This document shows, piece after piece, positions 16,755 to 35,148 of a DNA stretch of 64,000 nt; positions within the stretch are counted from its first letter, which is position 1, and every line of letters begins with the position of its first letter. The DNA is from Dehalococcoidia bacterium. GTDB taxonomy: Bacteria > Chloroflexota > Dehalococcoidia > Lucifugimonadales > JAGWBF01. The stretch spans positions 77,692 through 141,691 of the forward strand of contig CBDBNM010000002.1 of assembly GCA_965207935.1 (NCBI GenBank). Reading direction: 5' to 3'. A program made the translations under genes and the position numbers. The notes beneath the pieces were generated by a model. That model had not been told where the DNA came from. It ran no database searches and worked only from the letters and a program-made list of their open reading frames with translations.

Positions 16755-17330
16755 GTGTCTGAACCGGATAGTGGTGGGGGGTCCAAAACGATGGTAAAGC
16801 CCCATAGCGCGCGAAAAGGTCTGGTCATCGTGAATACCGGTGAGGGCAAGGGAAAGACGACAGCTGCCCTTGGCGTGATCTTTCGCGCTTGGGGCAGCGA
16901 CCTCAGAGTCAGGATGTTTCAGTTCATTAAGCACACATCCGCGAGGTTCGGTGAGCATAAGGCAGCTGAAAAACTGGACATCCAAATAGAGGCCTTGGGT
17001 GATGGTTGTACCAGGAATTCGAGCGATTTGGAAAAATCAATCTTACTGGCCAAAGAGCAGTGGATCCGCTGCAAGCACAATATACTTAACGGCAACGAAG
17101 AGATCGTCGTTCTGGACGAGTTCACTTACCCGATGCATTATGGGTGGGTCTCTGTCGCGGATGTCGTCGATACCCTAAGACGACGACCCGAAACGATGCA
17201 CGTCATCATCACGGGTCGATATGCTCCCCAGGAGTTGATTGACTGCGCAGACCTCGTTACTGAGATGAGGTCGATTAAGCATCCCTACCATGACCAGGGC
17301 ATCAAGGCTCAACTGGGAATAGAGCTTTAG
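16755..17330 (+). CDS. cobO: cob(I)yrinic acid a,c-diamide adenosyltransferase (CobO/BtuR family)
   Basis: Motifs GLVIVNTGEGKGKTTAALG, VVLDEFTY and a C-terminus KHPYHDQGIKAQLGIEL typical of BtuR/CobO. Start chosen at GTG 16755, 5 nt after AAGGAGG. The ORF track begins at 16686. Confidence 0.8.
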   Translation: MSEPDSGGGSKTMVKPHSARKGLVIVNTGEGKGKTTAALGVIFRAWGSDLRVRMFQFIKHTSARFGEHKAAEKLDIQIEALGDGCTRNSSDLEKSILLAKEQWIRCKHNILNGNEEIVVLDEFTYPMHYGWVSVADVVDTLRRRPETMHVIITGRYAPQELIDCADLVTEMRSIKHPYHDQGIKAQLGIEL

Positions 17331-18935
17331 TGGTGTCGCGGAGGGCCATCGGGGTAATCCAGTTGGTGGGCCGGACTGGACGAAATCAAGAACCGAGGCC
17401 GATTCCCTGGTCACGCCGTCGTTGGGCATGGGCACCGTGTACGTCAGCGTCGCCTCGTCTCCCTCCACCTCGATGGCCTCAACGAAGTTCCGGACGAGCG
17501 CCTTCTTCTCCGGTATCGTCCCCTTCTTCAGAAAGTCCCGGAAGTCCGCCACGTACCGCGCTATCTCCTTGGTGTCAGGAATGGAAACCCTGCGCTGCTC
17601 TAGCTGGGCCTCGGCGTCCTCCCTAGCAGCCTCAAGCTGCTCCTCACGGTGCCTCAGGGACATGATGCGGGGCGACAGGACCTCAAGGGTCAGGTCGCTG
17701 GTCTCAATGGCCTCGTAGAGCTTCCCCAGACGCTTCCTCACGTCACCAAGCTCCGCCTCCACAACCTCCAGCCTGCCGGACAGCTCTCCCGCCATGGCGT
17801 CGATCTCCTCCGCCACAAGCTGCACCAACTCGGTGATGGTCTCCTCGGTCAGTATCCTCTCCCTGATCTTCTCCACCACGAAGGTCTCCAGCTTCGGGGC
17901 GTTCAGGTAGCGGGCGCTGCACGTCCCCGCTCCTTCCCTGAACAACGTCCCGCAGATGTAGTAGGCGAACTGGCCGCTCTTGGCTCCCTGGGCCGAATAC
18001 GGCCTGCCGCACACCCCACACTTGAGCAGCCCGCTCAACAGATACGGGCTTCCCACCCTCGCGGGCCTCTGCACCTTGGGGGCGCGCTCGCTCATCGCCT
18101 GCTGCACGGCGTCGTAAAGCTCCTTCGACACCAGCGCGGGCCACGCTCCCTCCACCCTCACCGGGTCCTGGGCCTTCTCGTTCTTGCCCTTGACTCCCCA
18201 CACGGCGGTTCCGGTGTACGCCTCGTTGCGCAGCACGTAGTGGAGTCCGCCCTTGTACCACCGCTTGCCCCTGTTGGTGACTCCCCTCTCGTTCAACTCT
18301 TTGCACAGTTCTTTGAGGCCGTAGCCCTGTAGCGACTTCTCGAATATCTCCTTCACCACGGAAGCCGTGGCCGGGTCTACCTCCAGCGAGGGACGCTCCT
18401 TGGGTCCGTCCTGCACCTTGATCTTCCGGTAGCCGAAGGGGGCCTTGGAGCCCAGGAAGAAACCTCTCGAAGCGGCCTCCCGCATCCCCCGGACGACCTC
18501 TTGGGCCAAATTCTCGCTGTAATATTCGTCCACGCTCTCGATGATTCCCTCAAGCAGCCTGCCGGTGGCGCTGTCCTCGGCCTGCTCGGTGATGGACACC
18601 ACGCGGATGCCCTTGCGCCGCAGCTGGGCCTTGAAGGCCACGGCGTGCTCCCGCTTGCGGGTGAACCTACTGAATTTCCAGACTAAGATGACCTCAAAGG
18701 GCGCCTGGGGCTTGGAGCCCTCCTCGATCATCTTCCTGAACTGGGGCCGGTCGGCGACGCGGCCGCTCTCGGCCTCGTCGATGTACTCGCGGGCCACCGA
18801 GTAGCCGTTGGCCTTCGCGTACTCCTTGAGCGCCCTTAGCTGGGCCGCCACGGACAGGTCCACGTCCTGGCGGTCGCTGGACACCCTGGCGTAGAGGGCT
18901 GCCGGCGTCAGGGGCTGCAGGTGCTTCTTCTTCAT
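17175..18935 (-). CDS. large serine recombinase (resolvase/invertase N-domain, recombinase domain, zinc ribbon, coiled coil)
   Basis: 586 aa. Motifs: ALYARVSSDRQ catalytic Ser, RPQFRKMIEE, CGVCGRPY...YYICG zinc ribbon, and a long coiled-coil region. The last ~52 codons are antisense to the cobO 3' end and are probably not native. Confidence 0.9.
   Translation of the reverse strand: MKKKHLQPLTPAALYARVSSDRQDVDLSVAAQLRALKEYAKANGYSVAREYIDEAESGRVADRPQFRKMIEEGSKPQAPFEVILVWKFSRFTRKREHAVAFKAQLRRKGIRVVSITEQAEDSATGRLLEGIIESVDEYYSENLAQEVVRGMREAASRGFFLGSKAPFGYRKIKVQDGPKERPSLEVDPATASVVKEIFEKSLQGYGLKELCKELNERGVTNRGKRWYKGGLHYVLRNEAYTGTAVWGVKGKNEKAQDPVRVEGAWPALVSKELYDAVQQAMSERAPKVQRPARVGSPYLLSGLLKCGVCGRPYSAQGAKSGQFAYYICGTLFREGAGTCSARYLNAPKLETFVVEKIRERILTEETITELVQLVAEEIDAMAGELSGRLEVVEAELGDVRKRLGKLYEAIETSDLTLEVLSPRIMSLRHREEQLEAAREDAEAQLEQRRVSIPDTKEIARYVADFRDFLKKGTIPEKKALVRNFVEAIEVEGDEATLTYTVPMPNDGVTRESASVLDFVQSGPPTGLPRWPSATPLKLYSQLSLDALVMVGMLNRPHLSNEVCAVNQLLGSISTRDDDVHRFGSSS
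17363..17394. repeat. left junction (attL-like): tRNA-Ile 3'-end-like core TTGGTGGGCCGGA, 7 nt, then AAATCAAGAACC
   Basis: Direct sequence comparison with 35115-35148. Confidence 0.5.
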
Positions 18936-19147
18936 GCTGTCCTCCTTAGATGTTACCGAGTCTTACTCAGTATCATGACTCACCAAAGGGGTCATTGTCA
19001 AGAAACGGCTGTCGGTCGCTTTTCTATATCACTCCACCGAAACCGCAAGATACCGAAAGCTGCCGTAGGACTTCCCTGGGAAGCTGGAATACTCCTGCCA
19101 GCGAAGACGATAAGACCCTCGTATCTCTATCGGTGACTCTCGGCCCT

Positions 19148-19711
19148 TCACAGTTCCCGGCCTGGCGTTGGCGGCCCACGCCAATGCTCCCGAGACTTCT
19201 CGTCCCTCGTGTATGCGAAGTCGGCGTCCACCAGGTCTCTGTGTGTGGGAGCCTTCCAGTATGACGAGTCGTTGGTCAGCAACACCGCGTATCCAGCCTT
19301 GCACTGCTCCAGCTTGAAGCGCATGCGCTCAAGTCTCTGAATGTCCCGGAGGAAGTCATACCGCCCTTGGTCTTGTGCGCTTTGGTTGCGAAGGACAAAG
19401 GATTCGTCGTCTTGCTCCAGTTCCAATCCCCGAGTCTTGTACTTCAACTCGATGGCGATCCCTTCCAACGGAAGCCAGATGTCGAGGAATCTCCTCTGGT
19501 GCTCTACCTGCATGACATCGACCTCTAATCTGACCTGACTTTCCGGCATGGCCTGGTGAATATGCCATGCCAGAGCGTGCTGGAAGTCTGCTTCAGAATG
19601 AAACAGCTTCCGCGTACTTGCCAAGCTGGTCAGAAGATCGTTAACACCGAACATTGCCTTACTCATTTCCAGCCTGCGACAAAAGCCCCTCTCATCAGTT
19701 CCCCATTGCAA
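19148..19711 (-). CDS. PD-(D/E)xK nuclease-fold protein (uncharacterised)
   Basis: SEADFQHAL...FLDIWLP...IAIELKYK gives an E...D...ExK arrangement. The likely start is the internal MSKAMF. Confidence 0.45.
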   Translation of the reverse strand: MQWGTDERGFCRRLEMSKAMFGVNDLLTSLASTRKLFHSEADFQHALAWHIHQAMPESQVRLEVDVMQVEHQRRFLDIWLPLEGIAIELKYKTRGLELEQDDESFVLRNQSAQDQGRYDFLRDIQRLERMRFKLEQCKAGYAVLLTNDSSYWKAPTHRDLVDADFAYTRDEKSREHWRGPPTPGREL

Positions 19712-19723
19712 CCCCGGTCGTTC

Positions 19724-20710
19724 CTACAGCTGGCGTGGTTCATTTCTTGAATGCTCCCACGTCTCGATGGGGGCCACATGTGGGGGAAGATAACGGTTGG
19801 CTATATCAAGCACCATACCGTAGCGGTGTTTCACCTCGTCTGTCCGATTGTCTGTGCCAAAACCGACGACGGCCCTCAGGCCTCCTGAAAGGCTAGCGAT
19901 ACCGGCTGGCGTCAGCCCGACGCTCAGTCGAGCGTCAACCAATTCCTGGAGATCAACCCTCAGTTCTTCTAAGGCACAGTGCCACTCCCAAACATACTGC
20001 AATAGCTGAAAGGGCGCGTAGAATACCTTGTAATCGTTGGTCTGGGCGTCCTTCAGCTCGATTAGAACCAGGCGCCCCTTCGGATCAACTGCAATCTGAT
20101 CTACCTTCCTAGCTTTGGCACCTATCTCTGGCTCTTTCCATCCCTGCTGCCTAGCCGTTGCCTGTATAGATTTGAGTGCTGCTTTCACCTCAAGGAACTT
20201 CTTGGTCTCTTCTCGATGCTTCGCGGATTCATAGTTAAGGACAGCCTCACGGTCGAAAGGGACCCACTGTTCCGACACTCTTGACCATCGCGATTGGACT
20301 TCGCCCTCTCCCTCTGTGAAACTCGGATTGACGTCCACGACGCTCAGATAAGCCTTAAGCGCCTCGATGAACCCACCGTCGCCAATCCTCCATCGACCAA
20401 AGAGTCCCGTTCCCTTTGCACGTGGCTGGCCCATGTACTTCGGGTCGGCGTAGGCTTTCAGGTATCTTGCAGGTCGTCGTAGCGTTTGGACTGTGAGAAT
20501 AGTCGTCAGCCCGCAGTACACCTGTATCTTGTCATTGACCCGGAAGTGTACGTCCAACTCTGTGCCCTTGAACTCAACCCGGTTCAGGGCCATCACCGGC
20601 GCGAGGAACTCCCCCGGCTTCAGGAGTCCCCGCAACTGCTCGGAAGGAGCACGCGGGTATTTGATTATCGGGGTCGCCATAGCGATCCTCCTAAAGACGG
20701 TATCGAGCAC
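19724..20710 (-). CDS. uncharacterised protein with a C-terminal PD-(D/E)xK-like motif
   Basis: 328 aa with VDQIAVDPKGRLVLIELKD (D...ExK). The N-terminal ~170 aa are unrecognised. There is a 20-nt overlap with the upstream gene. Confidence 0.4.
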   Translation of the reverse strand: MLDTVFRRIAMATPIIKYPRAPSEQLRGLLKPGEFLAPVMALNRVEFKGTELDVHFRVNDKIQVYCGLTTILTVQTLRRPARYLKAYADPKYMGQPRAKGTGLFGRWRIGDGGFIEALKAYLSVVDVNPSFTEGEGEVQSRWSRVSEQWVPFDREAVLNYESAKHREETKKFLEVKAALKSIQATARQQGWKEPEIGAKARKVDQIAVDPKGRLVLIELKDAQTNDYKVFYAPFQLLQYVWEWHCALEELRVDLQELVDARLSVGLTPAGIASLSGGLRAVVGFGTDNRTDEVKHRYGMVLDIANRYLPPHVAPIETWEHSRNEPRQL

Positions 20711-21647
20711 GCATGTAAGCCGCCCAGTCTCTCAATCCTTCAGCCTCGCCGGCGCGGACGACTTCCGATGCAGGAAGAAACGGGGCCATGGCCGTGTCGG
20801 GGAGAAGATGCTTCCAGGCATCCCAATGCTCGGCAATGTCAGTGTTGGCGTCGTGAGCGCATAGTGCGAACCATGCCCGTTCAACCATGTCCTCCTGTTC
20901 AAGGCCACGGGCTATGGCAAGGTTTCGCATAGGCTGTTGCATGTCGTAGGCGAAGGGGCATGGCCCATCCAGGTCGGCATGGGGGAATGCGTTTCTGACG
21001 GAGCCGTGACTCTTGGCGAATATCTCCCAATAGCGTCTGTCCCTACTCTTCCTCCAAGGTCTTCTGAGGTAACAGGCGTCGGGGTCATTCAAGAAGAGTA
21101 CCGCAGAGTTGCAGACATCCTTACGGCGGTTTCCCCGGCTCCGTCGTCCACCGCAATGCGTGAAGCTGCCCTCGCTGAGCTTGACCTCCATCAAGACGAC
21201 AGCGCGGCGGCCATTCTCCAGCCACCCCCATAACGCCACATCTACTCCCGTGGCAGGCTCGTTTTCAGCAGGCCACTCGCCGTCCAGTTCTCCGAGCAAT
21301 CTCCCAGGGGGAATCCACTCGAAACTCAGCCTATCAATGATTAGTTGAGCGCCAACCAGCTCGCTTAGTTGTTCGGACAAGACCTCCCTGAGTCCTTCTC
21401 GGAACGGCAGAAAGAGGTTGAACGCGAATGCCTGTGAGCTGAGTATGTGGGCGACGTGCTCATGCAGCCTGATGGAGTCGGCGCGGGCCGTCGCCTTCGC
21501 TGAATCGCGGTAGGAGTCGTATATTCCGTCCGTCCACCTGGCCCATGCCGGAGGACGTCTGCCGCCGTAGTCGCACCACTCTTCCATGTGCGCTCTAAGG
21601 GATTCAGCAAAGGGTGTTGGTCGGTAGCCGGTCCTATCGTTACTCAT
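20691..21647 (-). CDS. restriction-endonuclease-like (PD-(D/E)xK) protein
   Basis: 318 aa. LSSQAFAFNLFLPF followed by GVDVALWGW...AVVLMEVKLSE gives D...ExK. Confidence 0.45.
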   Translation of the reverse strand: MSNDRTGYRPTPFAESLRAHMEEWCDYGGRRPPAWARWTDGIYDSYRDSAKATARADSIRLHEHVAHILSSQAFAFNLFLPFREGLREVLSEQLSELVGAQLIIDRLSFEWIPPGRLLGELDGEWPAENEPATGVDVALWGWLENGRRAVVLMEVKLSEGSFTHCGGRRSRGNRRKDVCNSAVLFLNDPDACYLRRPWRKSRDRRYWEIFAKSHGSVRNAFPHADLDGPCPFAYDMQQPMRNLAIARGLEQEDMVERAWFALCAHDANTDIAEHWDAWKHLLPDTAMAPFLPASEVVRAGEAEGLRDWAAYMRARYRL

Positions 21648-21698
21648 GGGCTTCTAACGGCAATGTCCAGTAGATTCAACGTCAGTCATTGGACCGTG

Positions 21699-22583
21699 CT
21701 ATACGGCCCTGGTGTCTCCAGTTGGCTGATACCGATATCCGGTGGGAAGCTCGGCGGTTCGCAAGGCCAAATCCATTGCGTTGCGGTCAGCTGCATATAG
21801 CTCTGTAGAACCTTCTATCATCATCCTGTTCAGCGTGTTGACGAACTCCTCACCGCCCTCTTGAGGTGATGGTGCTTGACATCGTAGCAACTGCGCCTCG
21901 GGAGACTTTTCAAAGCTAATCCGGCCGGATTGGCGATCCACTTCTACGACGGGACCCAGAATCTGTCCCGCGTGGCCGTCTGACACAAGGCACAGCCCTG
22001 TGGATGGCGATAGAGGAAACCAAACAAAGGTCTCCCGCTGTGCAGATTCAGCCGTGCTGGCGCACATTATCTTGTCCGATGTGAAGAAGGACTGGGGCTT
22101 ACTCAACACGAGGGGGCACAGCAGATAGTGTGTCAATGTACGCGAGACGCTGTTCACTAGGTCTCGGAAGACCCCGACGTCCTGGTGCGACGTCAGACGG
22201 TTCATCTCCCCTTCGGCTTGTTGTTGGGTGAGCCCTGAAGTTTGACGGCACTTGTCAACAACGTGTTTGATCTGGAGACGACAGGCTTGGGAACGTACGT
22301 AGTGCATGGCGATGAAGTCATAGATGTCACGGCCAACATCCGCCTTTGCGAAATCTCCGTGACTGAATCGGTAGAGGGTGTCTTTGAACCCGTTTTCGAG
22401 GTCCGTTATGTAATCGTCAACACCCTTCGAGCAATCTACTTCGAAAATCCCGACACCTCTGATGGATCGTTCCGTTGGTCGATAACTGGACGTGTTCAGG
22501 TACCAGGTTTCCCAAGAATTGGGCTGGCGGCCCACAAATGAGAAGTTCCGGAGTAGCTGTCGCTGAATCCTGTGCTGCCCCAT
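21699..22583 (-). CDS. DUF4238-like protein
   Basis: The N-terminal QHRIQRQLLRNFSF resembles the H-x-[IV]-P/Q-x-x-x-L-x-x-F opening motif of DUF4238. 294 aa. Confidence 0.4.
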   Translation of the reverse strand: MGQHRIQRQLLRNFSFVGRQPNSWETWYLNTSSYRPTERSIRGVGIFEVDCSKGVDDYITDLENGFKDTLYRFSHGDFAKADVGRDIYDFIAMHYVRSQACRLQIKHVVDKCRQTSGLTQQQAEGEMNRLTSHQDVGVFRDLVNSVSRTLTHYLLCPLVLSKPQSFFTSDKIMCASTAESAQRETFVWFPLSPSTGLCLVSDGHAGQILGPVVEVDRQSGRISFEKSPEAQLLRCQAPSPQEGGEEFVNTLNRMMIEGSTELYAADRNAMDLALRTAELPTGYRYQPTGDTRAV

Positions 22584-22585
22584 GG

Positions 22586-23014
22586 CTACTGGCTTGCCTC
22601 TGTTCGACGTGTCTCGACCTCCACTGACAAGAATCTTGGGGCGTTGAGGATTTTCGCACCCTGATGTTCCTGGAGGGGCAACAGATGCCGCCGATCACCG
22701 GTCACGAGGTAGTCGGCGGAAGCCTCCACAGCGCACTCCAGGATGCGGTTGTCCGCATGGCATCCCTCAATCACCTCCGGTAGCCGACGGGGGTAGATTA
22801 CTGTCCCGGCGTTCCCCAGCGCTCTGAGCACCTGGGACGAGCGTTACTCATCCCAACCGAACTTACGCCCTAGCACCCCGGCAGCTTCCTCCAAGATGAA
22901 GGTGGACAGGTAAAGCTCGAACCGACCCCTGAGTGCCAGTTCAAGCACAAGGCGTTCATTGCCAGGGAAGTTCAGGCCGGAGACGATGACGTTGGTGTCG
23001 AGGACGACCCTCAT
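22586..23014 (-). pseudogene. PIN-domain toxin (PIN_3-like) interrupted by an in-frame TAA
   Basis: The ATG at 23014 overlaps the antitoxin stop (ATGA). Translation gives MRVVLDTNVIVSGL...GRKFGWDE, then TAA at 22844-22846, then the same frame continues ...ILECAVEASADYLVTGDRRHLLPL. Confidence 0.7.
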
Positions 23015-23268
23015 GCACGGGCCGAGCCGATCTCGGCCCGGTACTCTTCCACCAGAGCGGCCACGTCTTCAGGCCCGATGCCCTTCGCCCTGGCCCGCTC
23101 CTCTCCGTACCGGAGAAGCTGTCTCCACTCCAACTCCTCGATGTAGCGCAGCAGCGCCTCACGAAGAAACTCGCTCCGGGACCGTCCCTGCTGCTTCATC
23201 ACCGCGTCCACCCGGTCGGCCATGTCCGGCGGCAGGGAGAAGGTAATGGTCTTGGTGGTTCGCGACAT
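23011..23268 (-). CDS. ribbon-helix-helix (CopG/MetJ-type) antitoxin
   Basis: 85 aa. KTITFSLPPDMADRVDAVMKQQGRSRSEFLREALLRYI is a typical RHH. It has a 4-nt overlap with the PIN gene. Confidence 0.75.
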   Translation of the reverse strand: MSRTTKTITFSLPPDMADRVDAVMKQQGRSRSEFLREALLRYIEELEWRQLLRYGEERARAKGIGPEDVAALVEEYRAEIGSARA

Positions 23269-23439
23269 GAATCACCTCTTGTTAGTCAGTCTTACCCAGA
23301 GTATGGCGCTATCTGCGGCTCACTGTCAATCGGTTCACGCACCAGACCGGCTTCCTGCGCAGACCCGCCTCACAGGGCGCGAGATTCGCAGGGTTGTCGA
23401 GGGGGTTGTACCCGTGTACAACAATCATGAGAAAGTAGA

Positions 23440-26400: not shown

Positions 26401-26730
26401 GACCCAAGCGGTGGGCCATGATGAGCCTGTCGATGGACGAAGCGGCGGGTTTCCGGCGACGGCGTGAAGCCCCCTATTGGACAGCCCCTACCGGACCCTG
26501 GCGGACGCTCTGGTGGATGATTGAGGCAAGGTGTCTGCTGCTGCCGAGGCTCTGATGGGGTGAACTACCGTACGATCGCCGCAAGCTGTGAAACCGGGCG
26601 GGAGACGCGCCGGACGATGAAGGGGGTTTGGGGCAAAGAGAGTGCTGTAGAGGACTGATATTCGGCTGGTAGCTTCAGTGCGAGATGGTGAGATGGCCGC
26701 CTTCCCCGTGGGAGCCATCGGCATGTTCTT
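23440..26730. repeat. ORF-poor tract of about 5-6 degenerate tandem modules (~0.5-0.65 kb) carrying a recurring GTAGCTG / CAGCTA(G/C)G..ATGGGG..GTGGAACAT motif set
   Basis: TAGCT/AGCTA-centred motifs occur at 23463, 23552, 23608, 24062, 24154, 24211, 24654, 24710, 25068, 25081, 25726, 25783, 26280 and 26670. Four motif pairs are spaced 56-57 nt apart. Segments 23526-23640 and 25700-25815 align over ~110 nt. Confidence 0.6.
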
Positions 26731-29700: not shown

Positions 29701-30303
29701 GGTTAGGTTGCTGGAGCCGACGGCGGCATATCGTCCCATCTCGCCGGAGAACAGGTACGCCTTGGCGTGAAGTCGATTCCTCGGCGAGCGGTGGTCCAGC
29801 ACCTGTTCGGGCAGCACCTTTCCTCTATCGGACCCGAGGAATCGCCTGACCTCCACCCCGTCCTTTCTCAGGAAGTCGGCCAGCGTAGTGACCCGCTCCC
29901 ATGCGGACAGGTCGAAGGCTGCCGCCTCCGGCGTCACTCCGCGTGCCAGAAGCTCCCGCCGTTCCTCGTGAGTCAGCAGCAGCCACGGGTAGCCGCCTTC
30001 GAGGAAGGTGTACCAGTCCACGGACTCCTCTGGGCCTCGAAGCTCGTCGCGGTCGCCGGGTTGGGACAGTACGTCTCCCGGCCCACGCCGATTCATGAAG
30101 GGCCGTTCTCCCAGCAACAGCCGCACTCTGGCGGCTCCCTCCATGCCATGCTTCAGGTCTAGGAATCCATCGGGTGTCAGGTATGCCGTTGCGATGCGAA
30201 TGTCCTGAGGGATGACGCGAGCCAGCGCACCGAATAGATGCTCCCGCATGAAGCCTGTTGTCGGCTCGTTGGCAACTGGAAGGACGTCTGTCTCATTGGT
30301 CAT
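26731..30303 (-). CDS. PLD-family (HKD) nuclease domain fused to an SNF2-family helicase
   Basis: 1190 aa. N-terminal motifs: IRIATAYLTPDGF...RLHAKAYLF...VGSSNLTKSG (HxK...GSxN). Then SNF2 motifs: DSVGLGKTYEG, ILVDESHNFRN, LMTATPINNS, ATDVLSEGQNLQD and WNPVRMIQRAGRIDR. Confidence 0.9.
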   Translation of the reverse strand: MTNETDVLPVANEPTTGFMREHLFGALARVIPQDIRIATAYLTPDGFLDLKHGMEGAARVRLLLGERPFMNRRGPGDVLSQPGDRDELRGPEESVDWYTFLEGGYPWLLLTHEERRELLARGVTPEAAAFDLSAWERVTTLADFLRKDGVEVRRFLGSDRGKVLPEQVLDHRSPRNRLHAKAYLFSGEMGRYAAVGSSNLTKSGLSENSELNLTSYDHDLTVQLEGWFDEKWELGQDCKAQFVQRLEECVLFGRRYTPWQVMLKSLHAAYGRFLEMGLSEEVMGRLAGFQQQAVQRCVALLRRHWGAMLCDSVGLGKTYEGLGILREFANQRSDDPQRARTSTRALIVCPAQLQDNWSTDRFAEWGIIATTVTMESLPSLVDIDEEPSPVQRQRLRAELKRYQDQYDVILVDESHNFRNPRTKRYRALMEIIRGGKPDTRVVLMTATPINNSVWDMYHQLMLITRGDDTWYAGRGPIPNLKTAFQAIEKGESDSGLLDTMMLSLVRRTRHDIRSMQDAGETMEVNGQPLRFPEHEIPKAVDYSLQGLYGNIYHDIIDAIEHLNFAVYRLDEYGVETGEKETSAQLKQRNANFVGIMRTILLKRMESSLAALTSTVRSLVDYLNLFLARLDQGHVLTPKQAYKLRGVLGGSLPDHDQDLEDMDPKAVAALQQELVAPEDVDLRGRLQADVEFDRDRLQTLLTRLQWLEEMLAEQGDPKAQAVRKLLEGLPKEDDQGQPTKVALFTTYKDTAQHLFKQFGGDVDSLKSTVRVQSNLKDARWMSLLTGGDDRNRRRSVLERFAPLAAHRETEPLDDPALLRKIEPLRAQGIELLIATDVLSEGQNLQDAQFLVNYDLPWNPVRMIQRAGRIDRLFSPHDKVYIYNLMPEHGLEDLLNLVQNLTRKIETIEEAVALDASVLGEQIEAKELDKVMQLRAGGVQADHVYREGERSQGLDAGAELLNRYLDMMKEFATEDVRDIPNGVYSVKKGMANGVYVMLKMPEEASGEVFWRFYPLGNVAQPLTSPSDVLSIVEAGRDEHRFEIPPNENPFKHLKEPLKAAVDQIGQAYLDAISAVTSDSFTRRIRQFLNRDDLLQSHPDLFSFFNEWVEMPLPSDATRRVVMRDPVRVINRLAPTRAEQGQVVQALTALRGAVQAEGLDRPIARPETRKPSVEDLELVAWELVVGPDGLARS

Positions 30304-30331
30304 AGTGGAGGAGTCTATGTTTACCTCGGAG

Positions 30332-30724
30332 CTACACTGAAACGATGCTCAGCCCCCGCATCCGCTCGAAATGCTGCGTGTTGTTGGTGAGCAGCGTCAG
30401 GTTGTTGCTTATCGCTGTGGCGCCTATCAGGATGTCCATATCTCCTATGAGATTCCCTTCTTCTCGCAGCCTGGCCCTTTCCGCGCCGAAGACCCGGCAG
30501 GCTTCATCGTCCAGCGGAACCACATTCACCGCTTCCAGGAACAGGCGCAGCGCCTCGGAGTCGGAATAAGGATTTCGGGATCGGGCCAGACCCTCGTAGA
30601 GTTCGGCCAAGGAAATTATGCTCATGCCGACTCCATCGGGCAGGAGTGCCTCCAACCGCCTGGCCGTTCTATCGGCCCTGTGCAGGTAGTCGATTGCCCA
30701 GTCTGTGTCCACGAGATACTCCAT
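30332..30724 (-). CDS. vapC: VapC-type PIN-domain toxin, with no separate antitoxin gene upstream
   Basis: 130 aa with YLVDTDWAIDYL, SLAELYEG, IGDMDILIGATAISNNLTLLTNN and HFERM. It starts 11 nt after the methyltransferase stop codon. Confidence 0.85.
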   Translation of the reverse strand: MEYLVDTDWAIDYLHRADRTARRLEALLPDGVGMSIISLAELYEGLARSRNPYSDSEALRLFLEAVNVVPLDDEACRVFGAERARLREEGNLIGDMDILIGATAISNNLTLLTNNTQHFERMRGLSIVSV

Positions 30725-30735
30725 GACGTTGGTTG

Positions 30736-33700
30736 CTAGAGCCTTGGTACGGGCCGCGTGCGGATGTCTCGGCTGGCGCGGATGTCTCTAATCAGTTCAT
30801 CCCCGTCAACACTCCATTTCCATGCACCGGCGGAGGCTTTCAAGGTGTTTAGTTTCCTCCAGTCCGACGGCATATCGGCACCCAACGCCTCGCGGCGTTC
30901 CCCAAGCCAATCGAGCATCAGTTTCCGTTCAGAAGCAGACAAGTCATACACATGAAAAACGATGGAGTCAATCTCCCGTTCGATACCCTCCAATTCTTCA
31001 GGCGAATTCTCAAAGCCAACTATTTCGTTTCCAAGCCGCTCGAGTTCAGCTTGGGCTTCGGTGCCGGGGGTTACGATAGGAGTTGGCTCGATGTAGCCAA
31101 TCTTGAACTCCTGAAACGAACCCCCGCGTGCAACCGTCAGCTTTGGGTAAAGGAAGTTGAGCACCGAAGAATTCATCATTGGCAACAGCCAACGCACTGG
31201 CTCAACTAGGAAGTTGGCAGGAGCGGAAATATACGCTTGGGATGTGTCTCTGGCAAATTTACTCTCTACTGCGAGGTTCCCCCACACAACTTTGGGGTGT
31301 TCGAACTCATGATAGAGACCCTCCTGCGGCTGTTGAAGCTCGTACCACGGGTGTAAATGTGCCGTAGCCCGCTCCTCAAGGTCGCTGCGAAACCACCTCA
31401 GATGGTCTCTGATGGCAGGATACTGATCTACGTCTACCCCACGACTCGTGAAGATGATGTAGAGTCCCGGTGAATGTGCCTTCCACCGCTTGATGTCCCG
31501 TCCGCGTAGCCACGGCTTGATGAGCTCCGCGCTTCGCGGGTCGTCCTCAATCAGTTCGTCACGCTTGTCCTGGTCTATGACGAACGCCTCGTTCAGACCT
31601 GTCTTGACGCCGTAGTACATGCGCCTATTGACGAACTCACCCAACGGAGTGCCCAGATTCATCAGCCGCTCGAAGAGGCGTATCAGGGCAGGATCTTCCA
31701 GAATCCAGCCATCCTTCTTCAGCATGACTTGGGGGAAATCGCCAATTGCGACCCTTGCGAGCAGCCCATCCAAGTCCTCCAACATGCCTCGCACCCTCTC
31801 GGTGTTGATTCTAAAGTCAGCTTCGGAGAGTTCCTTCCTAACGGGGGCGGATAGGTCGGCGACGGTCAGTGCGTGTCCCGCCATGTCATCTGCCCGGCGA
31901 CCCACTAACACAGCCGGGTACGCCGCGATAGCTTTGCCATTAGCTTCGAACAGAGGTAGATCGCCGAAATCGATTACGCTCTTTATGCGTAGTGAATTGG
32001 GCAAGTGTCCGCGGGTCCCCGCTCCATAGCCAGCCCGCATGTATTTGTTGCTGGTAATGAAGGCCAGCCAACCGCCGGGTCGAAGTAGTTGTAAGGCACG
32101 CGCGTAGAAGTAAACGAGGAGGTCCGCCCGTGAAGCGGCCACCTCCGGGAATGCCTCTCCATAGAAGAGTTCGTCCTCGTTGTCGATTCTCTCCATACGC
32201 ACATAGGGCGGGTTGGCAAGAACGATGTCGAAACCTGCCTCGGGATCGCCCTGTTGCAGGACATTGGGGAAGGCAACCGGCCACAGGAAGGGCTTCTGCA
32301 CTAGCGCGAAGTCCGTTGACTCCACTCCATCTCGAAGGGAGCGAATGCGCTCCATGAATCGGTCGGCTCTCCTCAGCGCGGCCTTACTGGGCTTCTCGGC
32401 TTTTCGTAGAGCCGCCCGCTTCTCCTCGGCCTTCCCCAGCGCATCTGTTAGGTGCAGAAGGATTATCTCCCGCTGGTCGCGGGCGATCAGGTCTCGCAAT
32501 TCACGGAGACGGGTCGGGTTTCTGTGTGTCCTCTCGAACTCCCTCCGCCGTTGGTCGATGTTGCGCTCCAATCTCTGGAGGCGGCTCTGGAGTTCCATGT
32601 CCAGTTGTATGCTTTTGGGCGCGGGCCAAGACTCCTTGAAGGTCACGCCCGCCACCCCGTCTACCAGCGAGTCGCCAGCCAGAATCTGAAAGTCCAGGTT
32701 GGGCAGTGCCCAATCGGAGTTCGGTTCAGGCGGCTCATCCATGTCCAACACCATAGAGAGCCAGAGGCGCAAGCGGCATATCTCAACGGCCTCAGGATTG
32801 ATGTCCACTCCGTAGAGGCTGCTCTCTATGATGCGCCGCTTCCATTCGCTCACTGTCCGGTAGAACTCGTTAGGCTCGACGTGGTTGCGCTGAGAGAAGA
32901 GAATCCCGCGACGCAGGGTCACCATCTCTTGGATGGTTCCTAGTAGGAACGCCCCTGAGCCGACGGCCGGATCGCAAACTCGCACCGTTTCCATCGCGTC
33001 GATGAGCGCATTAGCTGGGAAGTCTGGCAGAGGCTGATGCTCGTCCCTGGAACCAACGGCCTCTTGGCGCAGGGCCTCCAGGGTAGAATTTTCAACGCCG
33101 GTGGCATCACGCAAGTATCCGTCCAGGGCCTCCCGACACATGAAGTGGACAATCTCACGAGGGGTGTAGTAAGTGCCGGTGTCGTGACGCTCATCCCCCT
33201 GGTAGAGGTTCTCAAAGACCCGGCCTAGTAGCTCAGGATCTGGGTCAACGGATTGGTCGTCCGGCGTTGACTCTCTGGTGGTGAACCGATAGCGAGAAAG
33301 CAGGCCGAGGAGGGTTCGCTGCTGGCCTTCTTCACTATCGGCATCGGGGTCGAACACTTCGTCCGGCAGGGACACCTGCCCCGCGTCGTCGATGCGATCC
33401 TCCAGCGCGTTCCGACGGAACAGGCCACCATTTAGGTAGGGGACGTATCCCAGGACTGGGTGTTCGCTCCTACTGCTGCTCCCCGTCGCCATCGCATCGA
33501 AGAACATCGGGGTCAGGATGCCGCGATAGTATTCGCCCTCTTGCGTCTCTGCCCGTTTGTCCCAAAGATTCAGCAAGTAAGTCGGCGAACCCATCCCTCC
33601 GGGTGCTCCCAGCCAACGCTTGGCCTGAAGGAACCAGAGAAAGAGCACCCGGCCCATCTGTCGGGTGGCCCAGGCGCGGGCCTCCTCCTCGCCGAGAGAA

Positions 33701-34374
33701 GTGATTACGGGATGCTCCGGGTTGTGGGCTAGGAGCGCCTTGGCTATACGGTCCCGGACGGCGGCATACTCCTGGTAGAACCTGGTGGTTACGCGCTCAA
33801 CGCTGAATTGTTCTTGCCACAGTCTCGACACTTCCAAGAGGCTCGCCTCGTGCGGGATGCGCAAACCGCGCAGCAGATCTCGATGGAACCGAGTCGGCTT
33901 GTCCAAGTCGAGGTGGGCACGGACGCTGGTCACAGACCCGTTGGAAGCCCTAATCTGCGTGCGGGGAAAGACCAACTCAGCCTCGCGTCGCGAGTCGTTG
34001 GATGGAGGAACCAACAAGGCTAAGGCCCGCCTGTCAGGTACATGTTCTACCAGAGCGCGGGTGATGCGCCTTCGCGACCGATCCCTATCTGACGATTTGT
34101 AACCCCAGTCCGAGAGTACGCCGATCCACAGTCCAGCTTCCGCCGGTTCTGCCTTGCAACTCCCTACCCGATAGAGTTCGCTTACCCCGAAGCCTCCGTC
34201 GCCTCGGCCACGCAGAAACTGTTTGAGTCCGCCAGAAAGAGCACCAGCCAATCGGTCCTCTGGGCTCGGGACTGGGTCGAAACCCAAGAACGCGGCCAAG
34301 CTCCCCGCCCTCTGGGGATCGCCGCCGAAGTCCTGAAGGATACTGGCTACGTTACCGTCAGCGCCTAAAGTCAT
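30736..34374 (-). CDS. large N6-adenine DNA methyltransferase (Eco57I / type IIG / BREX PglX-like gamma class) with extra N- and C-terminal regions
   Basis: 1212 aa. Motif I is VCDPAVGSGAFLLG and motif IV is VLANPPYVRME. A TaqI-C-like region follows. The usual family C-terminus (VYDLSASERKLM) is followed by ~50 additional residues. Confidence 0.9.
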   Translation of the reverse strand: MTLGADGNVASILQDFGGDPQRAGSLAAFLGFDPVPSPEDRLAGALSGGLKQFLRGRGDGGFGVSELYRVGSCKAEPAEAGLWIGVLSDWGYKSSDRDRSRRRITRALVEHVPDRRALALLVPPSNDSRREAELVFPRTQIRASNGSVTSVRAHLDLDKPTRFHRDLLRGLRIPHEASLLEVSRLWQEQFSVERVTTRFYQEYAAVRDRIAKALLAHNPEHPVITSLGEEEARAWATRQMGRVLFLWFLQAKRWLGAPGGMGSPTYLLNLWDKRAETQEGEYYRGILTPMFFDAMATGSSSRSEHPVLGYVPYLNGGLFRRNALEDRIDDAGQVSLPDEVFDPDADSEEGQQRTLLGLLSRYRFTTRESTPDDQSVDPDPELLGRVFENLYQGDERHDTGTYYTPREIVHFMCREALDGYLRDATGVENSTLEALRQEAVGSRDEHQPLPDFPANALIDAMETVRVCDPAVGSGAFLLGTIQEMVTLRRGILFSQRNHVEPNEFYRTVSEWKRRIIESSLYGVDINPEAVEICRLRLWLSMVLDMDEPPEPNSDWALPNLDFQILAGDSLVDGVAGVTFKESWPAPKSIQLDMELQSRLQRLERNIDQRRREFERTHRNPTRLRELRDLIARDQREIILLHLTDALGKAEEKRAALRKAEKPSKAALRRADRFMERIRSLRDGVESTDFALVQKPFLWPVAFPNVLQQGDPEAGFDIVLANPPYVRMERIDNEDELFYGEAFPEVAASRADLLVYFYARALQLLRPGGWLAFITSNKYMRAGYGAGTRGHLPNSLRIKSVIDFGDLPLFEANGKAIAAYPAVLVGRRADDMAGHALTVADLSAPVRKELSEADFRINTERVRGMLEDLDGLLARVAIGDFPQVMLKKDGWILEDPALIRLFERLMNLGTPLGEFVNRRMYYGVKTGLNEAFVIDQDKRDELIEDDPRSAELIKPWLRGRDIKRWKAHSPGLYIIFTSRGVDVDQYPAIRDHLRWFRSDLEERATAHLHPWYELQQPQEGLYHEFEHPKVVWGNLAVESKFARDTSQAYISAPANFLVEPVRWLLPMMNSSVLNFLYPKLTVARGGSFQEFKIGYIEPTPIVTPGTEAQAELERLGNEIVGFENSPEELEGIEREIDSIVFHVYDLSASERKLMLDWLGERREALGADMPSDWRKLNTLKASAGAWKWSVDGDELIRDIRASRDIRTRPVPRL

Positions 34375-34877
34375 GACGCAGACTCCACACCGTCAATGAT
34401 CTTAACTGTGGCGTGCTCGAAATCCATCCCGAACTTCGCACAGTCAAACGGATCGGGATAGACGATGGCCCTGTCAGGTTCCTTCGGAAACTTCACGGGC
34501 AGCCACCGCTCCACCTGCACGTTCTCCTCCCTAAACTGCTGCAGGACCGCCAGCACTCTCTTGGCCTCGTTCACCGCCCTGTCGTAAGTGGGATGCTCAG
34601 ACTGATAGTCGGGGAACGGTAGACCTAAACCCCACCCCATGAACCCAACCCTGTACCTAATCATCTCATTCGCGAGTCGCTTCATCTCAGCGTCAGTCAA
34701 CTCGTAATGCTCCCTGATAGCCTCGGCACTGATGCGGTACTCGCGGGCGGCACCCTTTACCCGTACCTTGGACGCCTCAAGCCGTCCATCTACGATTCGC
34801 TGGCGGACAGCCTGGGGCGTGATCCCAAAGAATTGGGCCACTTCAGGCACGGTGTACATTCTCTCTTTGGTCATCAC
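34371..34877 (-). CDS. excisionase/MerR-type HTH DNA-binding protein with an unknown C-terminal domain
   Basis: MYTVPEVAQFFGITPQAVRQRIVDGRLEA is an Xis-family HTH. It has a 4-nt ATGA overlap with the methyltransferase start and lies ~240 bp from the right junction. Confidence 0.65.
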   Translation of the reverse strand: MMTKERMYTVPEVAQFFGITPQAVRQRIVDGRLEASKVRVKGAAREYRISAEAIREHYELTDAEMKRLANEMIRYRVGFMGWGLGLPFPDYQSEHPTYDRAVNEAKRVLAVLQQFREENVQVERWLPVKFPKEPDRAIVYPDPFDCAKFGMDFEHATVKIIDGVESAS

Positions 34878-35114
34878 GCCTAACTCACGCCTTCCATCGA
34901 GTCGAGTAGCGAAGCAATTCTAGCAAAGCACCGCAATCGACACAACCTAGCAAAGGCGAGAAAGAAATGGGAAATTGGGGACTGGTTGGGTTTGCGCGCA
35001 CCTCTGCGGATGAGGACCGCAGGGGTGCGGAGGAATCTCAGTCTCGTGGACCCACCACCCAAGCCGTCAATGTAGAGTCCCTGACTACACCTCCAGCTTG
35101 AAGGTCAAGGCGAA

Positions 35115-35148
35115 GGTTCTTGATTTTATCAAGCTTGGTGGGCCCGGA
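35115..35148. repeat. right junction (attR-like): GGTTCTTGATTT, 8 nt, then TTGGTGGGCCCGGA (the 3' end of tRNA-Ile)
   Basis: GGTTCTTGATTT is the exact reverse complement of 17383-17394. The core overlaps the tRNA acceptor/CCA end. Confidence 0.5.

What the first reader, a model, noticed from the sequence alone, without database searches (positions are those of the whole stretch)
17363..35148. ~17.8-kb one-strand defence island with an att-like DR/IR architecture between cobO and tRNA-Ile
What the sequence shows:
- TTGGTGGGCCGGA (17363-17375) repeats TTGGTGGGCCCGGA (35135-35148).
- The second copy is the acceptor/CCA end of the intact tRNA-Ile(GAU).
- Seven to eight nt inside each copy lie perfect 12-bp inverted repeats: AAATCAAGAACC (17383-17394) and GGTTCTTGATTT (35115-35126).

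Inference:
- Joining the two ends would create a ~53-bp dyad site, GGTTCTTGATTT-N8-core-N7-AAATCAAGAACC. That is about the size and symmetry of a large-serine-recombinase attP.
- The empty site would place the cobO stop ~30 nt from the 3' end of a convergent tRNA-Ile.
- The recombinase gene abuts the left junction.
- All 11 enclosed genes are on the minus strand and are recombination, nuclease, toxin-antitoxin or restriction-type.

Serine-recombinase elements that use a tRNA 3' end and carry only defence cargo are not a standard described class.
Basis: partly seen in the sequence, partly recalled or inferred. Interest (0 to 1): 0.8.

Follow-up and report, generated by a model that had tools for sequence, protein, structure and literature searches.

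The report
Serine-recombinase island inserted in tRNA-Ile
A 17.8-kb mobile island carrying restriction-type defence genes was inserted into the end of a tRNA-Ile gene by a large serine recombinase whose own gene spans the attachment site, a design already noted for Dehalococcoides tmRNA islands but here aimed at ordinary tRNA genes.

Summary
The two repeats and the two 12-bp inverted arms are the junctions of an integrative element driven by a large serine recombinase (LSR, 17175-18935, minus strand). In all 80 related loci fetched from Dehalococcoidia genomes, homology ends at the same core, TCCRGCCCACC(A). The opposite end always starts at CCACCA followed by the mirror arm. In five metagenome contigs that arm abuts the CCA end of intact tRNA-Ala or tRNA-Glu genes, as it does at tRNA-Ile here. 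Joined, the ends give a 52-bp dyad centred on CC (tRNA C71-C72). The arm motif lies 24 nt from the centre in the element and 18 nt in tRNAs, an attP/attB-like offset. The site sits inside the recombinase gene. Integration detaches a conserved 16-codon tail (35085-35135), so the 540-aa protein is encoded only when the ends are joined. No empty site was found. The novelty claim is overstated: Dehalococcoides ssrA islands (McMurdie 2011) use a ~540-aa serine recombinase overlapping attL. This is a tRNA-targeting variant of that kind with defence cargo.

The parts
16791..17330 (+). cobO (corrinoid adenosyltransferase), host gene flanking the island on the left
   Evidence: Pfam CobA_CobO_BtuR, E 5e-60. 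Orthologs at 86-90% identity are 180 aa. Homology to L081 and L083 runs from this gene to window 17373.
17331..17367 (.). Host-side (B') half of the left junction. It is a weak half-site with no GAYTCGAAC motif.
   Evidence: It aligns with the cobO-downstream intergenic DNA of L081 and L083. Sequence.
17363..17375 (.). The predicted crossover dinucleotide is at 17368-17369 (GG on the + strand, CC on the recombinase strand).
   Evidence: In 80 of 80 related loci, homology from the element side ends at TCCRGCCCACC(A). Homology from the host side ends at 17373. The dyad centre was computed from the perfect arms of L074.
17376..17394 (-). P arm of attP (19 nt, including the 12-bp inverted repeat 17383-17394). 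It is coding and specifies SVLDFVQ of the recombinase.
   Evidence: The GTTCTTGA motif lies 24 nt from the dyad centre.
17175..18935 (-). Large serine recombinase ORF in the integrated state (586 aa). Residues 1-524 (18935-17364) are the conserved protein. Residues 525-586 are read-through antisense to cobO.
   Evidence: Pfam Resolvase (aa 12-158), Recombinase (188-284) and Zn_ribbon_recom (299-358). All 120 listed homologs at 76-93% identity (119 of them at 84% or more) diverge right after LDFV(K/Q)S(S/G)PP. PDB relatives include TP901-1 integrase and SPbeta SprA/YokA.
19148..19711 (-). 187-aa ORF of unknown function next to the recombinase. It is a candidate accessory protein or directionality factor (inference only).
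   Evidence: Homologs at 69-86% aa identity lie just upstream of the LSR in L039, L056, L058 and L072. It is retained in the LSR-deleted derivatives L097 and L098. No family hit.
19724..20710 (-). 328-aa ORF of unknown function (cargo)
   Evidence: No family hit. No homolog in the 80 loci.
20691..21647 (-). PD-(D/E)XK / REase-ARP-type nuclease (cargo)
   Evidence: Pfam REase-ARP, E 7e-21, and PDDEXK_13, E 1e-17.
21699..22583 (-). DUF4238-like protein (cargo)
   Evidence: Pfam DUF4238, E 1e-5, just below the curated cut-off.
22586..23268 (-). Backbone pair: a small PIN-like ORF (22586-22831) and a ribbon-helix-helix protein (23011-23268)
   Evidence: RHH_1, E 9e-11. PIN_3 C-terminal fragment. 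RHH homologs are found in 47 of 80 loci at up to 96% identity and the PIN-like ORF in 14. Substitutions show third-position periodicity.
23300..26700 (.). Stretch of ~3.4 kb with no convincing gene. It is homologous among related elements but evolves like non-coding DNA.
   Evidence: No codon periodicity in substitutions. Indels are mostly 1-2 nt. Identity of 70-85% is about the same as LSR third-position identity. No Pfam, NCBIfam, PHROG or Rfam hit. The RNA-structure test was inconclusive.
26731..30303 (-). PLD(HKD)-SNF2 helicase (defence-type cargo)
   Evidence: Pfam SNF2-rel_dom, Helicase_C and PLDc_2. PADLOC 'HKD+Snf2', E 2e-50, and DrmD-like. It is 93% identical to a gene in L034.
30332..30724 (-). 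PIN-domain protein (cargo)
   Evidence: Pfam PIN, E 6e-16.
30736..34374 (-). Type IIG restriction-modification enzyme / DrmMI-like methyltransferase, 1212 aa (cargo)
   Evidence: Pfam Eco57I, N6_Mtase, TaqI_C and MmeI_Mtase. PADLOC REase_MTase_IIG, E 7e-97.
34371..34877 (-). HTH_17 (MerR/excisionase-type helix-turn-helix) protein, either a regulator or a possible directionality factor
   Evidence: Pfam HTH_17, E 3e-6. Weak PHROG excisionase hit and weak PADLOC mad1 hit. No homolog in the 80 loci.
35085..35135 (-). Detached 3' end of the recombinase gene: 16 codons (SLIKSRTFALTFKLEV) plus a TAG stop. It is in frame with the LSR only when the island ends are joined.
   Evidence: Of 21 distinct far ends, 18 stop at exactly codon 18 while using TAG, TAA or TGA. 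They share the pattern RTFx[LIV]x[FLV]xLx[VLF]. Database proteins carry this tail.
35115..35134 (.). P' arm of attP (including the 12-bp inverted repeat 35115-35126)
   Evidence: Homology among far ends starts at CCACCA-NNCTTGAYRAAATCAAGAAC.
35135..35148 (.). Right core copy, which is the tRNA-Ile acceptor/CCA end. The predicted crossover is at 35140-35141 (tRNA C72-C71). The terminal ACCA is supplied by the element.
   Evidence: The extra C relative to the left copy lies on the tRNA (B-arm) side of the predicted crossover, as expected.
35136..35212 (-). Intact tRNA-Ile(GAU), the attB B arm. The T-loop motif GTTCGAGTC (35151-35159) lies 18 nt from the dyad centre.
   Evidence: ARAGORN. Rfam tRNA, 68 bits. 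tRNA-Ala and tRNA-Glu targets in L088, L091, L092, L094 and L095 have the same geometry.

Best explanation
Window 17370-35139 is an integrative, non-phage genomic island. It was inserted by its own large serine recombinase (LSR) into the 3' end of tRNA-Ile(GAU).

The att sites (inferred from sequence):
- The element's attP is a 52-bp dyad: GGTTCTTGATTTCGTCCAG - TCCGGC[CC]ACCAA - GCTTGATAAAATCAAGAACC.
- The attB is the tRNA T-arm and acceptor end, GTTCGAGTC-N9-[CC]ACCA, plus about 25 nt downstream.
- Strand exchange at the CC dinucleotide (tRNA C71-C72) leaves the tRNA intact, because the element re-supplies ACCA.

The split gene:
- attP lies within the last ~30 codons of the LSR gene, so integration splits that gene.
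- The chromosome-borne copy ends in read-through of whatever flank it lands in. Here that is 62 residues antisense to cobO.
- The native 540-aa protein, with its conserved 16-residue tail, is encoded only on the excised circle or when another element's far end lies downstream.

Shown versus inferred:
- Shown: the boundaries, the dyad geometry, the tRNA targets in relatives and the conservation of the tail.
- Inferred: the exact crossover, current activity and the function of the tail.
- My best guess is that the tail makes recombinase activity or stability depend on integration state.

Cargo: a type IIG restriction-modification enzyme, a PLD-SNF2 helicase, PIN proteins and a PD-(D/E)XK nuclease.
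For: 1. LSR domain set: Resolvase, Recombinase and Zn_ribbon_recom.
2. A scan found 380 relatives in Dehalococcoidia/Chloroflexota genomes.
3. Far ends in nine of those loci and 13 metagenome contigs all begin at CCACCA followed by the mirror arm. In L088 and L095 (tRNA-Ala GGC), L091 and L094 (tRNA-Ala UGC) and L092 (tRNA-Glu CUC) the arm abuts the CCA end of an intact tRNA.
4. L074 has 19-nt arms that match at 18 of 19 positions around a 14-nt spacer, which places the centre on CC. The GTTC motif lies 24 nt from the centre in P arms and 18 nt in tRNA arms and in 13 B' flanks carrying GAYTCGAAC.
5. All 120 listed homologs diverge right after ...SxPP and range from 523 to 868 aa.
6. The tail is conserved: 18 of 21 far ends stop at codon 18, using three different stop codons.
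7. The host synteny break lies inside the left repeat.
8. The symmetric inverted repeat has a chance probability of about 1e-5.
9. The 1-nt difference between the repeat copies lies on the arm side of the predicted crossover.
10. The window holds a single LSR and a single pair of arms, with housekeeping genes on both sides.
11. Precedent: Dehalococcoides ssrA-GIs and DsiB.
Against: - No empty cobO-tRNA-Ile site and no circular junction of this particular element was found. An exact 34-mer search of the metagenome collection found nothing, and the window's own proteins are not in the assembly collection.
- In the nearest relatives, cobO is followed by a transporter gene. In L081, tRNA-Ile lies 5.3 kb away. 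The pre-insertion arrangement is therefore not established, and the site may have had a more complex history.
- The host-side B' half-site in the window matches the consensus poorly.
- No directionality factor is identified.
- An integrated LSR lacking its native tail may be unable to excise.
Confidence: 0.85

Rival explanations
1. The island is a fixed relic. It was integrated by the LSR as described, but it is now immobile because integration removed the recombinase's native C-terminal tail and no directionality factor is present.
For: The integrated ORF carries 62 unrelated residues in place of the conserved tail. No conserved directionality-factor candidate was found. No circle junction was found. 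About 3.4 kb of the interior looks non-coding or decayed.
Against: The LSR ORF, both arms (a perfect 12-bp inverted repeat) and the detached tail exon with its stop codon are all intact. Decay would have eroded them. The family is multi-copy and sits at many different sites, which implies recent activity.
Confidence: 0.3
2. The present arrangement is not a simple attP x attB event at a virgin cobO/tRNA-Ile site. Instead it arose by accretion or replacement at a hot spot. Under this view, an earlier element occupied the tRNA-Ile site, as in relative L081, and was displaced or deleted by recombination between att-type sites, which brought cobO next to the island.
For: L081 has 5.3 kb of other genes between cobO and tRNA-Ile, with a paralog-type arm (GGTTCTGTCTACC...) at the tRNA end. 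L081 and L083 share GTGGGCCG with the window at the cobO-side break. Relatives commonly abut other elements: 27 of 80 meet a convergent paralog LSR and about 20 meet sister-family far arms.
Against: The window contains only one LSR and one pair of arms, with no remnants of a second element. L081 is only about 86% identical in cobO DNA, so it is a distant guide.
Confidence: 0.2
3. The repeats are coincidental, and the region was acquired by another route: a tyrosine integrase, a transposon, a prophage or an ICE. A variant of this rival is that the inverted repeats are inversion sites for a DNA invertase.
For: The direct repeat alone is not significant.
Against: The same core and arms bound the LSR in 80 of 80 loci and abut tRNA CCA ends in independent contigs. 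No tyrosine recombinase, transposase, capsid, terminase, relaxase or T4SS domain was found in the island. The cores are in direct orientation, which gives excision rather than inversion. The inverted repeats are the two half-sites of one dyad.
Confidence: 0.02

Closest known systems
[quoted passage not shown] 2011, PMC3146451)
   Same: - Same bacterial class.
- A serine recombinase of about 540 aa sits at one end of a 10-20-kb island.
- The island integrates at the 3' end of a tRNA-like RNA gene and leaves a short direct repeat.
- The recombinase gene overlaps the att site, so its C-terminus varies with the flank. The authors suggested it is complete only on the circle or next to another island.
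- Tandem accretion of islands occurs, and it is seen here in relatives.
   Different: - The target here is tRNA-Ile, and tRNA-Ala or tRNA-Glu in relatives, not tmRNA.
- The recombinase lies at the end distal to the RNA gene and is co-oriented with it. DsiB is adjacent to ssrA and convergent with it.
- No DsiA-like small serine recombinase, ParB, RecF-like or Mom genes were detected.
- The cargo is restriction/defence-type, not reductive dehalogenases.
- Sequence relatedness to DsiB itself could not be tested.
Canonical large serine integrases (phiC31, Bxb1, A118/LI, TP901-1, SPbeta SprA)
   Same: Same domain architecture. The attP is a dyad of about 50 bp with a non-palindromic central dinucleotide. 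The attB half-sites have the outer motif closer to the centre. The offset here is 6 bp, against about 5 bp reported for LI integrase (from my own knowledge of Rutherford/Van Duyne 2013).
   Different: Those enzymes mostly target protein-coding or intergenic sites, and their attP lies outside the int ORF. Here the target is the conserved T-arm/acceptor/CCA end of tRNAs, and attP lies inside the int ORF.
Classical tRNA/tmRNA-targeting genomic islands with tyrosine integrases (Islander-type)
   Same: Integration at the 3' end of a tRNA gene, regeneration of the tRNA by element sequence, a direct repeat of the tRNA end at the far boundary, and accretion at hot spots.
   Different: The catalyst is a serine recombinase, not a tyrosine recombinase. 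The shared core is only about 6-10 nt, and the site is a short dyad without arm-type sites.
Split or altered integrase genes: SSV1-type archaeal integrases and Myxococcus phage Mx8 intP (from my own knowledge). Also integration-dependent immunity in mycobacteriophages (attP inside the repressor gene).
   Same: attP lies inside a coding sequence, so integration changes the protein's C-terminus. In SSV1 the target is also a tRNA gene.
   Different: All of those use tyrosine recombinases. Here only the last 16 codons are detached, and the enzyme is an LSR.
SCCmec / CcrAB cassettes
   Same: LSR-mobilised, non-conjugative cargo islands that insert at the 3' end of a conserved housekeeping gene.
   Different: SCC uses two recombinases and targets rlmH (orfX), with no tRNA and no split gene.

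Membership tests
Large serine recombinase (serine integrase) | N-terminal resolvase catalytic domain with a serine nucleophile | tested here: met
   Pfam Resolvase, E 3e-32, aa 12-158. The motif YARVSSDRQ is present.
Large serine recombinase (serine integrase) | Recombinase domain plus zinc-ribbon domain C-terminal to the catalytic domain | tested here: met
   Pfam Recombinase, E 1e-24 (aa 188-284), and Zn_ribbon_recom, E 4e-15 (aa 299-358).
Large serine recombinase (serine integrase) | attP of about 50 bp with dyad symmetry around a non-palindromic central dinucleotide | tested here: met
   A 52-bp dyad was reconstructed from the window. L074 has 19-nt arms matching at 18 of 19 positions around a 14-nt spacer centred on CC.
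Large serine recombinase (serine integrase) | attB half-sites with the outer (zinc-domain) motif closer to the centre than in attP | tested here: met
   The GTTC motif lies 24 nt from the centre in P arms. It lies 18 nt from the centre in tRNA B arms and in 13 B' flanks carrying GAYTCGAAC. Assigning the motif to the zinc domain is an inference.
Large serine recombinase (serine integrase) | Catalyses attP x attB recombination | not testable with these tools
   This needs an in vitro or in vivo assay.
Dehalococcoides ssrA-GI / DsiB islands | Recombinase gene overlaps the att site at its 3' end, giving variable C-termini | tested here: met
   Described for dsiB in PMC3146451.
Dehalococcoides ssrA-GI / DsiB islands | Integration at the ssrA (tmRNA) 3' end with a 20-bp direct repeat | tested here: not met
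   The target here is tRNA-Ile. The relative L024 has a flank resembling a tmRNA end, but Rfam found nothing in the 160 nt available.
Dehalococcoides ssrA-GI / DsiB islands | Integration module containing DsiA (a small serine recombinase), RecF-like, ParB-like and Mom-like genes | tested here: not met
   There is no second Resolvase-domain ORF and no ParBc or Mom hit among the island ORFs.
Dehalococcoides ssrA-GI / DsiB islands | Recombinase adjacent to the target RNA gene and convergent with it | tested here: not met
   The LSR lies at the far end and on the same strand as the tRNA. Paralogous LSRs in relatives do have the DsiB-like orientation.
Dehalococcoides ssrA-GI / DsiB islands | Sequence similarity to DsiB | not tested
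Tyrosine-integrase tRNA island | Encodes a tyrosine recombinase | tested here: not met
   No Phage_integrase-type hit in any island ORF.
Prophage / ICE / IME | Capsid or terminase genes, or relaxase and T4SS genes | tested here: not met
   Only weak, sub-threshold hits were found: NikA-like at E 0.003 for the RHH protein, and small terminase or excisionase for the HTH protein.
DISARM (cargo) | DrmA and DrmB (DUF1998) together with DrmC, DrmD and DrmM | tested here: not met
   Only DrmMI-like/type IIG and HKD+SNF2 (DrmD-like) proteins are present, with no DrmA or DrmB. The cargo is better described as a type IIG restriction-modification enzyme plus a PLD-SNF2 helicase.

The most novel reading that the evidence does not exclude
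This LSR family reads the near-universal tRNA T-loop/acceptor/CCA signature (GTTCGAnTC-N9-CCACCA) and can therefore enter many different tRNA genes. Its split gene acts as an integration-state switch. Under this reading, the conserved 16-residue tail is required for integration, for stability or for directionality control. It is present only on the circle or when a neighbouring element donates a tail, which would couple recombinase activity to element topology and to array formation.
Probability: 0.3. Interest if true: 0.7.

Novelty: new variant of a known kind. Interest (0 to 1): 0.5.

Why it matters
- It extends the only described case of serine-recombinase islands at tRNA-like genes (Dehalococcoides ssrA-GIs) to ordinary tRNA genes. 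The family is abundant in uncultured Dehalococcoidia: 380 copies in species-representative genomes, and at least 8 of the 80 fetched loci come from a single genome.
- It supplies a base-resolution model of the sites: a 52-bp attP, a CC crossover at tRNA positions 71-72, and a 6-bp attP/attB motif offset.
- It gives sequence-level evidence of selection on the detached tail. That turns the 2011 speculation, that the recombinase is complete only on the circle, into a directly testable hypothesis.
- Serine integrases are major genome-engineering tools. One whose attB is a conserved tRNA end, and whose activity may be gated by its own C-terminus, would be of practical interest.
- For genome annotation, it explains the many 'recombinase' ORFs of odd length (523-868 aa) in these MAGs.

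Tried and rejected
- Empty site: an exact 34-mer for the predicted cobO/tRNA-Ile junction found nothing in metagenome contigs.
- Own lineage: exact-protein look-ups of the window's cobO and LSR found nothing, so the window's own lineage is not available.
- cobO orthologs: L081, L082 and L083 do not show an empty site, because synteny differs.
- Same element elsewhere: L088 and L095 share only about 77 bp around the att site with the window, so they are different elements.
- tmRNA or tRNA identity of the L024 and L012 flanks: Rfam found nothing.
- Circular contigs: the short C-terminal 'proteins' carrying the native tail turned out to be pieces of frameshifted or deleted LSR genes in low-coverage contigs, not circles.
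- Conserved ncRNA in 23.3-26.7 kb: conservation equals synonymous-site divergence, the structure-conservation index is 0.3-0.7 and there is no Rfam hit. It is not supported.
- ORF 23481-23915 (+): I first took its tblastn hits as evidence for a plus-strand gene. I rejected that reading after the periodicity and indel analysis.
- Structure prediction of the tail: not attempted. Only closely related sequences may be submitted, so the alignment would be too shallow to trust.
- TRF on the giant surface-protein gene found nothing because the period exceeds 500 bp. The repeat finder did find the repeats.

Full report
OBSERVATION

- The direct repeat is TTGGTGGGCCGGA at 17363-17375 and, with one extra C, TTGGTGGGCCCGGA at 35135-35148.
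- The second copy is the acceptor/CCA end of an intact tRNA-Ile(GAU) on the minus strand, 35136-35212 (ARAGORN; Rfam 68 bits).
- AAATCAAGAACC (17383-17394) and its reverse complement (35115-35126) lie 7 and 8 nt inside the two copies. They are the only copies of that 12-mer in the window.

Taken alone, the direct repeat is not significant. Its longest exact run is 10 nt, and 16% of shuffled 500 x 500-nt zones do as well. A perfect inward-facing match of 12 nt or more, placed symmetrically, occurs in only 2 of 200,000 random position pairs of this window.

WHAT THE RECOMBINASE IS

ORF 17175-18935 (minus strand, 586 aa) has the full large-serine-recombinase (LSR) domain set: Resolvase at aa 12-158, Recombinase at 188-284 and Zn_ribbon_recom at 299-358. 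Its closest solved relatives are serine integrases. The ORF does not stop before the left repeat. It reads through it (the repeat is near codon 520) and continues for 62 residues antisense to cobO.

COMPARATIVE MAPPING OF THE ENDS

A protein search gave hundreds of homologs. All but one of the 120 listed are 84-93% identical, they mostly cover only the first ~89-92% of the query, and their lengths vary from 523 to 868 aa. All 120 listed diverge immediately after ...LDFV(K/Q)S(S/G)PP.

A scan of species-representative genomes found 380 relatives, all in Dehalococcoidia, Chloroflexota or SAR202 MAGs. They are often multi-copy: at least 8 of the 80 fetched loci come from a single genome. In all 80 loci, nucleotide homology runs through ...TCGGTTCTTGATTTCGTC(C/A)AG-TCC(A/G)GCCCACC(A) and then breaks.

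The opposite ends were visible in nine of these loci. They all start their homology at CCACCA-GACTTGAYRAAATCAAGAAC, the mirror arm.

Scanning metagenome contigs for that arm gave 13 hits. In five of them the arm abuts the CCA end of an intact tRNA, exactly as at tRNA-Ile in the window:
- tRNA-Ala(GGC) in L088 and L095
- tRNA-Ala(UGC) in L091 and L094
- tRNA-Glu(CUC) in L092

On the host side, the two closest cobO orthologs (L081 and L083, 88-90% aa identity) align with the window from cobO through GTGGGCCG (17366-17373) and diverge immediately after. Element-side and host-side homologies therefore overlap only in the core, as expected for site-specific recombination. The window contains a single LSR and a single pair of arms. 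It is flanked by housekeeping genes.

ANATOMY OF THE SITES

Joined, the window's ends give GGTTCTTGATTTCGTCCAG-TCCGGCCCACCAA-GCTTGATAAAATCAAGAACC, which is 52 bp. In L074 the two 19-nt arms match at 18 of 19 positions around a 14-nt spacer, TCCAGCC|CACCAGA. This places the dyad centre on a CC that corresponds to tRNA positions 71-72.

All tRNA targets share CCACCA. The crossover must therefore lie there, and the element re-supplies ACCA. The single-base difference between the window's two repeat copies lies on the arm side of that crossover, as the model predicts.

The GTTC-containing outer motif lies 24 nt from the centre in both element arms. It lies 18 nt from the centre in the tRNA arms (T-loop GTTCGAnTC) and in 13 of the 80 host-side flanks, which carry GAYTCGAAC at a fixed distance. 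This 6-bp offset resembles the attP/attB half-site difference described for serine integrases. That comparison rests on my own knowledge, and assigning the motif to the zinc-ribbon domain is an inference.

THE SPLIT GENE

attP lies inside the recombinase ORF, so integration detaches the last codons of the gene. At 21 distinct far ends, the LSR frame continues as P(D/S/N)(L/W)(I/T)KSRTFx[LIV]x[FLV]xLx[VLF]. In 18 of them it stops at exactly codon 18, using TAG (13), TAA (3) or TGA (2). In the window this tail exon is 35085-35135. A conserved stop position with interchangeable stop codons, plus an alternating hydrophobic pattern, indicates selection on a frame that is continuous with the LSR only when the ends are joined. 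The predicted full length is 540 aa.

Database proteins carrying the native tail exist. About 20 of the 80 loci lie next to a sister family's far arm, which donates a homologous 17-codon tail (...TVDRTIFEMWLGGL*). That explains most of the recurrent 540-aa forms.

PRECEDENT

McMurdie et al. 2011 (PMC3146451) described Dehalococcoides ssrA genomic islands with these features:
- a ~540-aa serine recombinase, DsiB, next to a 20-bp repeat of the tmRNA 3' end
- tandem island arrays

The window's element shares these traits and differs in four ways:
- The target is ordinary tRNAs.
- The LSR is distal to the RNA gene and co-oriented with it.
- There is no DsiA/ParB/Mom module.
- The cargo is different.

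In a streptococcal survey, serine integrases almost always disrupted protein genes, whereas tyrosine integrases took tRNA ends (PMC5357655). tRNA targeting by an LSR is therefore uncommon, but it is not unprecedented in this bacterial class.

CARGO

Eleven ORFs are confidently coding, and all are on the minus strand:
- the LSR
- a 187-aa ORF conserved next to the LSR in some relatives
- a 328-aa ORF of unknown function
- a REase-ARP/PD-(D/E)XK nuclease
- a DUF4238-like protein
- a small PIN-like ORF and an RHH protein, which form the family backbone (the RHH is in 47 of 80 loci)
- a PLD-SNF2 helicase, 93% identical to a gene in L034
- a PIN protein
- a 1212-aa type IIG restriction-modification enzyme
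- an HTH_17 protein

The cargo is not a complete DISARM system, because DrmA and DrmB are absent. No phage or conjugation genes were found.

The 3.4 kb from 23.3 to 26.7 kb is homologous among relatives. It shows no codon periodicity, and most of its indels are 1-2 nt. Its divergence equals that of synonymous sites, and it has no family or Rfam match. A structure-conservation test was inconclusive.

WHAT IS NOT ESTABLISHED

No empty site or circle junction for this element was found. In L081, cobO and a convergent tRNA-Ile are 5.3 kb apart. Other genes lie between them, and a paralog-type arm sits at the tRNA end. This shows that tRNA-Ile is a used site in the lineage, but it leaves the pre-insertion arrangement open. 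Current mobility, the directionality factor and the role of the tail are inferences.

VERDICT

The novelty claim is reduced: this is a tRNA-targeting variant of the Dehalococcoides serine-recombinase island type, with a well-defined att architecture and a split recombinase gene. Confidence in the main explanation is 0.85, and interest is 0.5.

Noticed in passing
window 23300-26700: About 3.4 kb inside the island has no convincing gene. It is homologous in up to ~25 related elements at 70-85% identity. Substitutions show no codon periodicity, indels are mostly 1-2 nt, GC skew is strongly positive, and there are no Pfam, NCBIfam, PHROG or Rfam hits. Divergence is about that of LSR third codon positions, so constraint is not demonstrated. 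A few 200-nt windows fold better than shuffles on the + strand: 23600-23799 (z -4.2) and 25100-25299 (z -8.3).
   Followed up: partly
L001-L080, recombinase-side junction (position ~11560 in most loci): Related elements commonly abut other recombinase elements. In 27 of 80 loci the LSR meets a convergent, full-length paralogous LSR (roughly 75% identical at the DNA level) tail-to-tail at the shared core. About 20 loci meet a sister family's far arm. L057 looks like an insertion into the centre of another family's palindromic site. This points to accretion or nesting arrays like the Dehalococcoides ssrA region, but the order of events was not worked out.
   Followed up: partly
L023, L032, L034, L042, L043, L050, L052, L053, L058, L064, L067, L068, L077 (first ~30 nt after the junction): Thirteen otherwise unrelated host flanks carry G(A/G)(C/T)T(C/A)GAAC at a fixed distance of ~18 nt from the dyad centre. 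This mirrors the tRNA T-loop motif, yet these flanks are not tRNA genes. They are probably selected half-sites of non-tRNA targets.
   Followed up: partly
L081 15820-15860: In the closest relative's chromosome, tRNA-Ile(GAU) has a paralog-type arm (GGTTCTGTCTACC...) directly against its 3' end but no recombinase gene nearby. The 5.3 kb between it and cobO holds a transporter, an oxidoreductase, a PIN/Phd pair and an ankyrin-repeat protein. It may be a decayed island at the same site.
   Followed up: partly
L097 6446-7773 and L098 65-1391: These are deletion derivatives in which a homolog of the window's 187-aa ORF is fused directly to the last ~85 recombinase codons plus the native tail. They sit next to DDE transposases in low-coverage long-read contigs.
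   Followed up: partly
window 10052-16351 (minus strand): A 2099-aa ORF encodes a giant surface-type protein with fn3, He_PIG, cadherin and Big_9 domains. It is built from six ~603-bp tandem repeats that are 65-93% identical to a reference copy.
   Followed up: partly
window 22586-23010: The PIN-like ORF is only 81 aa and matches only the C-terminal end of the PIN_3 model. Third-position periodicity in the same frame continues upstream towards the RHH gene. The PIN gene may therefore be interrupted or use an unusual start.
   Followed up: no
window 26731-34877; L034 1629-5198: The module HTH_17 - type IIG RM/DrmMI-like methyltransferase - PIN - PLD-SNF2 helicase resembles candidate defence systems (PADLOC 'HKD+Snf2', weak mad1 and mad2 hits) but matches no complete named system. 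The helicase recurs at 93% identity in another element, L034.
   Followed up: partly
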